DNA of 64,000 bases. Origin: Eledone cirrhosa. Lineage: Eukaryota. The stretch covers positions 102,982,001 to 103,046,000 of the forward strand of contig OZ024742.1 in the NCBI GenBank assembly GCA_964016885.1, in the 5' to 3' direction. The notes below the pieces were generated by a model. That model searched no databases and was not told the origin of the DNA. It saw nothing but the letters and a program-made list of their open reading frames with translations. Within the stretch, counting starts at the first letter, position 1; every line of letters starts with the position of its first letter. A program made the position numbers and the translations under genes. Positions 12,578-13,243 of the stretch are shown here, one piece after another.

Positions 12578-13243
12578 GTAATAATAATAAAATTGAAGAC
12601 TAAAATCCAGAGAGGGCTCGATAAGGAAAATATATATCAAATATATAAGAACCGAAGAGCAAATATTTATTAAAATAACAGATTAAAGTTTAAGCAAAGA
12701 ATCGCTGCTTTCACCCTTAACGGGATCTTCTGAAACTAACAAAGTCAATCTGTAAACGCAGAACTGGATATTTCAATAAACGTTGAAACCGGAGGAAGAC
12801 AGGAAGACGATACTTTGGTTTATCAGGAGTTTTAGGTATGATTTCCTGCTTGGTACGGGTATGTTCTTTGTAGAAATATTCAGATGTTGTTTCTGCATGA
12901 TGAATATAAGTCAGTAGAGTGCGAGCCCTCTCTGGATTTTAGTCTTCAATTTTATTATTATTACTATTTGGCTCCTTCGGTTGAGCACTCTACTGACTTA
13001 TATTCATCATGCAGAAACAACATCTGAATATTTCTACAAAGAACATACCCGTACCAAGCAGGAAATCATACCTAAAACTCCTGATAAACCAAAGTATCGT
13101 CTTCCTGTCTTCCTCCGGTTGCAACGTTTTTTGAAATATCCAGTTCTGCGTTTACAAATTGACTTTGTTAGTTTCAGAAGATCCCGTTAAGGGTGAAAGC
13201 AGCGATTCTTTGCTTAAACTTTAATCTGTTATTTTAATAAATA
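12578..13243. mobile_element. Fold-back, circularly permuted ~364-nt unit with variant hammerhead motif (family B) in (TA)n
   Basis: Left arm 12578-12922 antisense, right arm 12922-13243 sense; CAGAAGA-TCCCGTTAAGGGT-GAAA at 13175-13198. Confidence 0.7.

What the first reader, a model, noticed from the sequence alone, without database searches (positions are those of the whole stretch)
12578..13243. Second circularly permuted unit (~364 nt) with a conserved non-canonical CAGAAGA hammerhead core, multi-copy and always in (TA)n
Seen: the block gagccctctc...tattac lies at the 3' end of the left arm but at the 5' end of the right arm, which closes a ~364-nt circle. Further fold-back copies occur at 21655-22140, 24848-25058 and 47524-47830, fragments at 13650-14120 and a diverged copy at ~25200-25340. 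The intact copies read CAGAAGA-U-CCC-GUUAA-GGG-U-GAAA-GCAGCGA-UUC-UUUGCUU-AAACU: U4 replaced by A, a U.U at the base of stem II, and stem I pairing (AGUUU/AAACU) only after a 7-nt bulge. Inference: conservation across copies suggests a functional HHR variant or a derived fold rather than decay.
Basis: partly seen in the sequence, partly recalled or inferred. Interest (0 to 1): 0.75.

Follow-up and report, generated by a model that had tools for sequence, protein, structure and literature searches.

The report
Penelope retrotransposon hammerhead with altered core
This is a fold-back insertion, in a TA repeat, of a shortened jumping gene that likely belongs to the Hydra group of Penelope-like retrotransposons; its hammerhead-ribozyme motif carries A instead of the normally fixed U at core position 4 as the family's usual state, so it is predicted to cut weakly or not at all and would be a natural test of whether these elements need their ribozyme.

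Summary
The sequence features are real, but the reading changes. 12578-13247 is an inverted pair of 5'-truncated copies of a Penelope-like element (PLE) in (TA)n; one arm ends 85-86 nt further 3' than the other (the PLE 'tail'; 4 of 4 fold-backs). The 365-nt 'circle' contains the first 26 codons of an ORF that matches Hydra-clade N-termini, joined to the 3' UTR. A contig from a second organism continues that ORF in frame, and the junction is nearly absent from the reads, so the circle is a rare deletion derivative, not the family unit. The hammerhead folds as a bulge-free type I motif: the 7-nt bulge is a misparse, and the U.U at stem II is common in Hydra-clade hammerheads (14 of 26 published rows). 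What stays unusual is U4A, the family-wide state in the runs laid, plus a G-C swap at 15.2-16.2; all 26 published Hydra rows have CUGA. Published mutagenesis and folding predict weak or no cleavage, and the inserted arms were copied across the cleavage site. Cleavage, covariation and circular RNA are not shown. Verdict: new variant of a known kind.

The parts
12474..12577 (.). (TA)52 target microsatellite, left flank
12578..12922 (-). Left arm: 5'-truncated copy running from the leader to the long 3' end (345 nt)
12578..12663 (-). Tail: 85-86 nt present only on the long-end arm; its last 43 nt (12578-12620) are the permuted block
   Evidence: short end at 12663/12664 with TA loose ends in 2392+470 reads
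12687..12737 (-). Type I hammerhead-like motif, left copy; A at position 4 = 12731
12922..13247 (+). Right arm: from the permuted block to the short 3' end
12922..12964 (+). Permuted 43-nt block (end of the upstream unit / pLTR), 1-nt overlap with the left arm at the fold-back junction
12965..13008 (+). Leader between the block and the ATG
   Evidence: head-to-tail joint through a leader variant in one contig (table 5c)
13009..13086 (+). First 26 codons of a likely Hydra-clade PLE ORF (KNIP motif); mirrored at 12821-12898 (-)
13086..13087 (+). Internal deletion junction, ORF codon 26 to 3' UTR; mirrored at 12820/12821
   Evidence: copies B, D, E1 match only from 13087; depth minimum at 12822 and in-frame ORF continuation in run X4
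13087..13169 (+). 3' UTR upstream of the hammerhead
13170..13220 (+). Type I hammerhead-like motif: stem I 13170-74/13216-20, core C3-A9 13175-81 (A4 = 13176), U.U 13182/13194, stem II 13183-85/13191-93, G12-A14 13195-97, stem III 13198-202/13210-14, H17 = U13215 (predicted cut after 13215, triplet CUU)
13246..13299 (.). (TA)27 target microsatellite, right flank
13640..13818 (+). Older copy E1 with C3A and G11.2-region change; ordinary 3' UTR upstream
13918..13988 (+). Fold-back fragment E2; the sense arm starts inside the core (about A7)
21654..22140 (-). Fold-back copy B; short-end arm with about 330 nt of 3' UTR holding a ~140-nt tandem duplication, long-end arm inverted
24848..25057 (+). 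Fold-back copy C; the arms join on the 5-nt complementarity TTTCA/TGAAA, stem I 5' strand lost
25275..25336 (-). Diverged copy F (75%); stem III kept, loop III changed, core 5' half lost
47525..47830 (+). Fold-back copy D

Best explanation
The locus is an inverted pair of 5'-truncated copies in (TA)n, likely laid down by the protein of a Hydra-clade Penelope-like retrotransposon from an internally deleted, uncleaved RNA, and its hammerhead carries a family-wide U4A that is predicted to damp self-cleavage. Steps: (1, shown) every fold-back has one long 3' end and one short 3' end, 85-86 nt apart, each against (TA)n. (2, inferred from Frangieh 2024) the PLE protein nicks both strands of the AT-rich target and starts reverse transcription at two internal sites of the RNA; the two truncated cDNAs join head to head, often on a microhomology. 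(3, shown) the arms at this locus carry block-leader-26 codons-3' UTR-hammerhead-tail, i.e. a unit from which most of the ORF is missing; a linear partial-tandem RNA of about 410 nt is enough as template, and neither arm (345 and 326 nt) exceeds one unit. (4, shown) the arms run across the predicted cut site, so (inferred) the template was uncut or re-ligated. (5, inferred) U4A, the CUU triplet and a competing 5-bp helix that A4 completes make cleavage slow; this costs nothing, or helps, because the RT must read through the motif, while the fold itself stays under constraint, probably as a protein-bound structure with residual or protein-assisted cleavage.
For: ORF start: 11 of 20 ungapped identities to the N-terminus of Hydra-1_Ajap by eye; a contig of organism B continues in frame after Ile26 with ten residues, 4 of 10 identical to the next ten of Ajap (loose end at 12821, translated by hand). 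Hammerhead layout matches File S2 Hydra rows: U.U 14 of 26, H17 = U 10 of 26, short stem II. (TA)n targeting, inverted truncated copies and one-sided tails are described for PLEs and Hydra; two RT start sites give the tail, and hammerhead mutants do not affect insertion in vitro. Three-stem scan with position 4 free: 8 hits in the window (4 CAGA, 4 CUGA), 0 in 10 shuffles. U4A fixed: all T>A places at 5% or more are accounted for outside the motif in X1 (2 of 2), X4 (2 of 2) and X13 (1 of 1). 0 of 22 listed variable places in 12578-12820 fall in the 51-nt motif (p about 0.006 if uniform). Deletion junction rare: depth at 12822 is 32 against 12,209 at 12827 and 396,335 at 12813 in X1; 12 reads against 240 and 1,485 in X22. 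CUGA-region mutants show low activity (Roberts 2023). A4 raises the competing helix from at most 0.06 to about 0.7 in the 51-nt context.
Against: No RT or endonuclease sequence of this family was seen: the motif scan of the window found none and three protein searches with the 41-aa peptide found no PLE, so clade assignment rests on 36 codons and the RNA layout. The in-frame continuation comes from one contig, 30 letters shown. 32 of 72 rows of other letters and 43 of 58 joints are hidden; X22 has 2 unlisted T>A places and X1 has 5 unlisted C>T or G>A places that could lie in the motif. Variable places belong to a few subfamilies and are not independent. The tail (85-86 nt) is longer than the 30-40 nt described. 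Covariation is not significant. The hammerhead fold is not the predicted minimum in any context tried (-6.7 against -8.8; -14.9 against -26.2 kcal/mol).
Confidence: 0.68

Rival explanations
1. The A4 motif is catalytically dead and has been kept only as a structural handle for the PLE protein (template binding or a stop point for reverse transcription or 5'-3' decay).
For: Low activity of CUGA mutants; cleavage is dispensable in vitro; Naiads thrive without hammerheads; truncation points cluster at the 5' edge of the motif: 10 of 13 opposite-strand joints shown lie at 12723-12737, and X22 depth falls from about 5,900 to 2,600 across 12734-12757.
Against: All catalytic positions (G8, G12, C3-G8, A15.1-U16.1, H17) are kept, which a mere handle need not do; a U4C viroid variant is poor in vitro yet works in vivo (Perreault 2011); a PLE hammerhead cleaves only with protein. 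The same truncation cluster occurs in a family with a canonical core, so it says nothing specific about A4.
Confidence: 0.3
2. One reading: a 365-nt retrozyme-like circular RNA, made by a fully functional variant hammerhead, is the replicating unit.
For: The unit closes at 365 nt, within the 170-400 nt of animal retrozymes; both arms carry the same junction, so an RNA with it existed; a circle would also explain copying across the cut site; retrozymes are proposed PLE derivatives; one contig shows a block-to-leader joint.
Against: No arm is longer than one unit; no tandem array in the window; the junction is nearly absent from reads; the unit folds as a circle no better than shuffles (z -0.5); the block-to-leader joint is expected in any tandem PLE; two cuts by a U4A ribozyme are needed.
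Confidence: 0.08
3. U4A is a neutral loss of function in the source element that hitch-hiked through a burst of copying; nothing about the motif is under constraint.
For: Window copies are 95-100% identical throughout; no significant covariation; fold not favoured.
Against: 0 of 22 listed variable places fall in the motif while both flanks vary; no difference at 5% in the motif in organism B (all 16 places accounted for); A4 is kept in an organism J contig whose loop II differs; the 15.2-16.2 pair is swapped on both sides relative to 26 of 26 Hydra rows.
Confidence: 0.17
4. The element is a MITE or other fold-back DNA transposon and the hammerhead likeness is chance.
For: Short, non-coding, inverted arms; no Rfam hammerhead hit.
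Against: Arms are unequal, junctions differ in every copy, the two ends are different points of one strand, an ORF start of PLE type is inside, and the scan finds 0 such motifs in shuffles. Rfam also misses the canonical hammerheads at 12400/12417.
Confidence: 0.02

Closest known systems
Hydra-clade Penelope-like elements (Craig et al. 2021, PMC8557442), e.g. Hydra-1_Ajap, Penelope-9_HM
   Same: KNIP-type ORF start; type I hammerhead near the 3' end with U.U at the base of a 3-4 bp stem II and often H17 = U; (TA)n target; inverted truncated copies; stem I of Hydra-1_Ajap resembles this one
   Different: A at position 4 (all 26 rows have CUGA); G15.2-C16.2 and CUU triplet (all 26 rows have C15.2); 5-bp stem III with a 7-nt loop instead of a near-palindrome with a 1-3 nt loop; ORF deleted after codon 26 at this locus
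Poseidon PAc of Anolis (Frangieh et al. 2024, PMC11167929)
   Same: Two 3' ends that define a tail; AT-rich target; template spans the hammerhead uncut
   Different: PAc starts RT inside the ORF, its tail is 30-40 nt and its core is canonical; here both ends lie before the leader and the tail is 85-86 nt
Non-LTR retrozymes (Cervera and de la Pena 2020, PMC7229834; Li et al. bioRxiv 2026.07.22.740005)
   Same: Unit of 365 nt with a type I hammerhead, PLE-derived, non-autonomous
   Different: No tandem array, no more-than-unit copy, not highly self-paired, core not canonical, holds an ORF start
Natural hammerhead core variants (Perreault et al. 2011, PMC3088659; Cervera and de la Pena 2014, PMC4209133)
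   Same: U10.1-U11.1 mismatch known and active; position 4 can vary (U4C in a viroid); U3-A8 in Schistosoma PLEs
   Different: No U4A in the passages read; here it is the majority state of a high-copy family

Membership tests
Hydra-clade PLE | N-terminal ORF motif (KNIP region leading to RWK) | tested here: met
   11 of 20 identities in the window part plus 4 of 10 in the continuation, ungapped, by eye against Hydra-1_Ajap; the letters shown stop just before the RWK position
Hydra-clade PLE | RT with DKT motif, CxCX5C linker, C-terminal GIY-YIG without CCHH | not testable with these tools
   No ORF body in the window; no genome held; protein searches empty
Hydra-clade PLE | Insertion into (TA)n | tested here: met
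   11 of 12 ends in the window; TA loose ends at the short end in all four runs
Hydra-clade PLE | Inverted 5'-truncated copy and a tail on one end only | tested here: met
   4 of 4 fold-backs
Hydra-clade PLE | Type I hammerhead layout near the 3' end | tested here: met
   C3 lies 154 nt from the long end; layout as in File S2; core differs at position 4
Type I hammerhead ribozyme (strict consensus) | Three helices around the core, no bulge, helix I open | tested here: met
   slid controls pair 31-59% against 90%
Type I hammerhead ribozyme (strict consensus) | U4 of the CUGA turn | tested here: not met
   A in 5 of 5 intact cores and in the runs laid
Type I hammerhead ribozyme (strict consensus) | C3, G5, A6, G8, A9, G12, A13, A14, A15.1-U16.1, H17 | tested here: met
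Type I hammerhead ribozyme (strict consensus) | Covariation in the stems | tested here: inconclusive
   1 double change in 13 pairs, 50 of 500 shuffles reach it; 8 rows, mostly near-identical
Type I hammerhead ribozyme (strict consensus) | Self-cleavage after H17 | not testable with these tools
   needs a bench assay or RNA reads
Non-LTR retrozyme | Two or more head-to-tail units each with a hammerhead | tested here: not met
   none in the window; junction nearly absent in reads
Non-LTR retrozyme | Monomer of 170-400 nt | tested here: met
   365 nt
Non-LTR retrozyme | Highly self-paired circle | tested here: not met
   circular MFE -57.3 against -54.7 +/- 4.9 for 100 shuffles
Non-LTR retrozyme | Expressed as circular RNA | not testable with these tools
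   no RNA run could be laid

The most novel reading that the evidence does not exclude
A natural hammerhead that has replaced the U-turn uridine by A and is still held under constraint across several animal species: either a U4A ribozyme that cleaves only when the Penelope protein folds it, or a non-cutting hammerhead fold turned into the RNA handle of the retrotransposon. The pile-up of 5' truncation points at the 5' edge of the hammerhead, in this family and in a canonical-core neighbour, would then be a genomic footprint of the folded, protein-bound motif.
Probability: 0.3. Interest if true: 0.7.

Novelty: new variant of a known kind. Interest (0 to 1): 0.42.

Why it matters
What hammerheads do in Penelope-like elements is an open question (cut precursor RNA, parasitise, or serve another role). 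A successful high-copy family with a normally near-invariant core base changed is a natural experiment: a 50-nt RNA and its one-base revertant can say whether cleavage is needed, and the genome holds thousands of reads' worth of insertion ends to map against it. It also shows that CUGANGA-based descriptors miss whole PLE families. The locus further catches a PLE shortened to retrozyme size, a plausible first step of retrozyme birth, although here it has not spread.

Tried and rejected
Rfam: no match at gathering score in the window; at E up to 10 in 12260-14200 only hairpin-type chance hits and no hammerhead, even for the canonical copies at 12400/12417, so the blank is uninformative. No genome held. 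Exact 26-nt motif in JGI metagenomes: 0. No RNA holder listed; not used as evidence. Protein searches with the 41-aa peptide: no hit, two repeat proteins judged spurious, Atlas scores 0.80 or less, no Pfam family; the peptide was too short for the related-loci search. An apparent second variant core, CCGAAGA at 30760/31227, was rejected: the real hammerhead of that family is canonical and on the other strand (31194). The AAAAGA cores at 13925 and 25336 are fold-back junctions or truncations, not variants. My first stem register was off by one base and was redone; only one search is used. Literature for a natural U4A: searches and finds showed none; Lunse et al. 2017 on PLE hammerhead variants is not held and may list one; Perreault's Figures 5, S6, S7 and the Roberts single-mutant values were not seen. 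Earlier findings of this scan: none returned.

Full report
Setting.

Observation. The arms 12664-12922 and 12985-13243 are 259 nt and differ at 3 places. The 43-nt block at 12578-12620 (minus) recurs at 12922-12964 (plus), so the arms can be read as one 365-nt unit. The core motif occurs 5 times exactly, 7 times with up to 3 mismatches, and never in 100 shuffles. 11 of 12 ends printed abut TA runs, which cover 4.8% of the window.

The hammerhead parse. A scan for complete three-stem type I motifs with position 4 left free gave 8 hits in the window, 4 with CAGA (this family) and 4 with CUGA (other families), and 0 in 10 shuffles; copy C has lost the 5' strand of stem I. In File S2 of Craig et al. 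2021 (PMC8557442; I read the abstract, passages, section 11, supplement parts 2 and 52 and supplement searches) the 26 Hydra rows (25 families) have U.U at the base of stem II in 14 and H17 = U in 10, CUGA in 26 and C15.2 in 26 (counted by eye). So U.U is ordinary; U4A and the G15.2-C16.2 swap are not. Perreault et al. 2011 (PMC3088659, passages) call U10.1-U11.1 the best-tolerated mismatch and cite a U4C viroid variant that is poor in vitro but sufficient in vivo.

What the unit is. 13009-13134 reads as a 41-aa frame. Its residues 7-26 match the N-terminus of Hydra-1_Ajap at 11 of 20 positions without gaps, including KNIP, also seen in Hydra-1_Obim and Hydra-1_Crog (by eye). Copies B, D and E1 match copy A only from 13087; upstream they share another sequence. 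I laid four runs on the left arm (two of organism A, one each of B and J; likeness 80, share 5). At 12820 the main loose end is the B/D sequence (941 reads in X22; also X1 and X13). One contig of organism B covers 12821-12922 and goes on with other letters; the 30 shown read on the sense strand, in frame after Ile26, as QKTDAFIKRL, 4 of 10 identical to the next ten residues of Ajap. Depth at 12822, which I read as counting only records that span the junction, is 32 in X1 (12,209 at 12827; 396,335 at 12813) and 12 reads in X22 (240; 1,485), 8 of them with the B/D letter and many other differences. The 365-nt unit is therefore an internal deletion that joins ORF codon 26 to the 3' UTR, present at one or very few loci. 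Both arms carry it, so it was in the RNA template. A linear RNA of about 410 nt (block to block) suffices; neither arm exceeds a unit; folded as a circle the unit is no more stable than shuffles (z -0.5). Against this: one X1 contig joins the block to a leader variant and the ATG, but any tandem PLE gives that joint.

Architecture and mechanism. In 4 of 4 fold-backs one arm ends at the long end (12578 type) and the other at the short end (12663/12664 type), 85-86 nt apart; the short end carries TA loose ends in 2392+470 X22 reads. Inverted truncated copies, a one-sided tail and (TA)n bias are described for PLEs and for Hydra. Frangieh et al. 2024 (PMC11167929, parts 1-2 of 4) show in vitro that a PLE protein cuts and extends both strands of AT-rich DNA, starts at two internal RNA sites that define the tail, inserts equally well with a dead hammerhead, and that the hammerhead cuts only with protein. 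I infer the same route here. The arms cross the predicted cut site, so the template was uncut or re-ligated.

Is U4A the family state? Position 4 is place 12731 (T on the plus strand). No row of the 40 shown lies in 12681-12739; 32 are hidden. The counts by kind close the gap for the contig runs: T>A places are 2, 2 and 1 in X1, X4 and X13, all listed elsewhere; X1 has no other unlisted change at a T or A; all 16 places of X4 are listed outside the motif. X22 has 5 T>A places, 3 shown, so it is not closed, and 5 C>T or G>A places of X1 and several of X13 are unlisted. A loose end in X13 keeps the A4 core next to a different loop II (one contig). 0 of 22 listed variable places in 12578-12820 fall in the 51-nt motif (p about 0.006 if uniform; places are not independent). 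Covariation in 8 window rows is not significant: 1 double change, 50 of 500 shuffles.

Does it cut? Not testable here. Against strong activity: Roberts et al. 2023 (PMC9901934, passages) found low activity for all CUGA-region mutants but the C3G/G8C swap; Perreault notes that U4 contacts the A6-N7 phosphate; the hammerhead fold is 1-11 kcal/mol above the predicted minimum in four contexts, and A4 completes a competing helix 13172-76/13194-98 (probability about 0.7 against at most 0.06 with U in the 51-nt context, about 0.2 in 76-98 nt, 0 in 161 nt). For residual activity: all other core positions are kept, stem III is long enough for a monomer, and PLE hammerheads are weak or protein-assisted anyway (Cervera and de la Pena 2014, PMC4209133, parts 1-2 of 4). 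My split: weak or protein-assisted cleavage about 45%, dead but constrained fold about 30%, neutral hitch-hiking about 17%, fully active circle-forming ribozyme about 8%.

A side pattern. 10 of the 13 opposite-strand joints shown (15 of 58 joints are shown) have one side at 12723-12737, the 5' edge of the motif, and X22 depth drops from about 5,900 to 2,600 there, part of it (548 reads) from an indel variant. In the window, copy C and fragments E2 and F start there too, and all 5 arms of the canonical family at 12268-12473, 37718-37905 and 53510 end within about 9 nt upstream of C3. This fits either a template whose 5' end is trimmed to a folded, protein-bound hammerhead or a cDNA that snaps back once stem I is copied; I could not tell them apart.

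Comparison and novelty. It works like a Hydra-clade PLE insertion; membership is likely but the RT and endonuclease were not seen. It fails the strict hammerhead consensus at U4 and fails the retrozyme tests of tandem units and self-pairing (Cervera 2020, PMC7229834, passages; Li et al. bioRxiv 2026.07.22.740005, part 1 of 5 and passages; its supplements are closed). My searches found no natural U4A, but Lunse et al. 2017 (recalled as the main survey of PLE hammerhead variants) is not held and figures were not visible. Verdict: new variant of a known kind; interest 0.42.

Noticed in passing
window 12268-12473, 37718-37905, 53510-53621: A second fold-back family in (TA)n with a canonical CUGA(A/U)GA core, the same U.U at stem II and a tail of about 70 nt on one arm; all 5 arms are truncated within about 9 nt upstream of C3.
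   Followed up: partly
joints at 12723-12737; window 24988, 13928, 25336: 5' truncation points of this family cluster at the 5' edge of the hammerhead (10 of 13 opposite-strand joints shown); copy C joins on the TTTCA/TGAAA complementarity that A4 completes.
   Followed up: partly
window 30549-31821: Third family: inverted and direct copies of a unit of about 520 nt with a canonical type I hammerhead (C3 at 31194, long stem II, H17 = U); a better retrozyme-like candidate than the present finding. The CCGAAGA look-alike is on the wrong strand.
   Followed up: partly
window 21135-21300 (-), with a 71% relative at 15807-15960: Canonical type I hammerhead (C3 at 21220) between (TA)n runs; a fourth family.
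   Followed up: no
window 16115-16360 (-) and 11070-11215 (+): Further CUGANGA...GAAA motifs next to (TA)n that did not pass the three-stem scan; 16115-16360 has four partial relatives in the window.
   Followed up: no
window 14013-14152 (and 13824-13872): A multi-copy chimera: 50 nt of this element's tail lie inside another repeat whose end at 14124-14152 appears as a loose end in 782 X22 reads and in X1 and X4; that end recalls non-autonomous Helitron-like (HINE/DINE) termini (recalled, not tested).
   Followed up: partly
window 21804-22046: The 3' UTR of copy B holds a tandem duplication of about 140 nt (82% identical).
   Followed up: no
window 41013-41046: CAGAAGATCCC...GAAAGCAGC look-alike (20 letters) inside a GC-rich reading frame of a decayed retroelement-like region; no stems I or III; taken as chance.
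   Followed up: partly
window 4260-5894 (-), 27369-29167 (+), 59154-59522 (+): Non-LTR RT with C2H2 zinc fingers; endonuclease and RT fragments; a Gadd45/L7Ae-like exon (Pfam E 0.0036, below cut-off).
   Followed up: no
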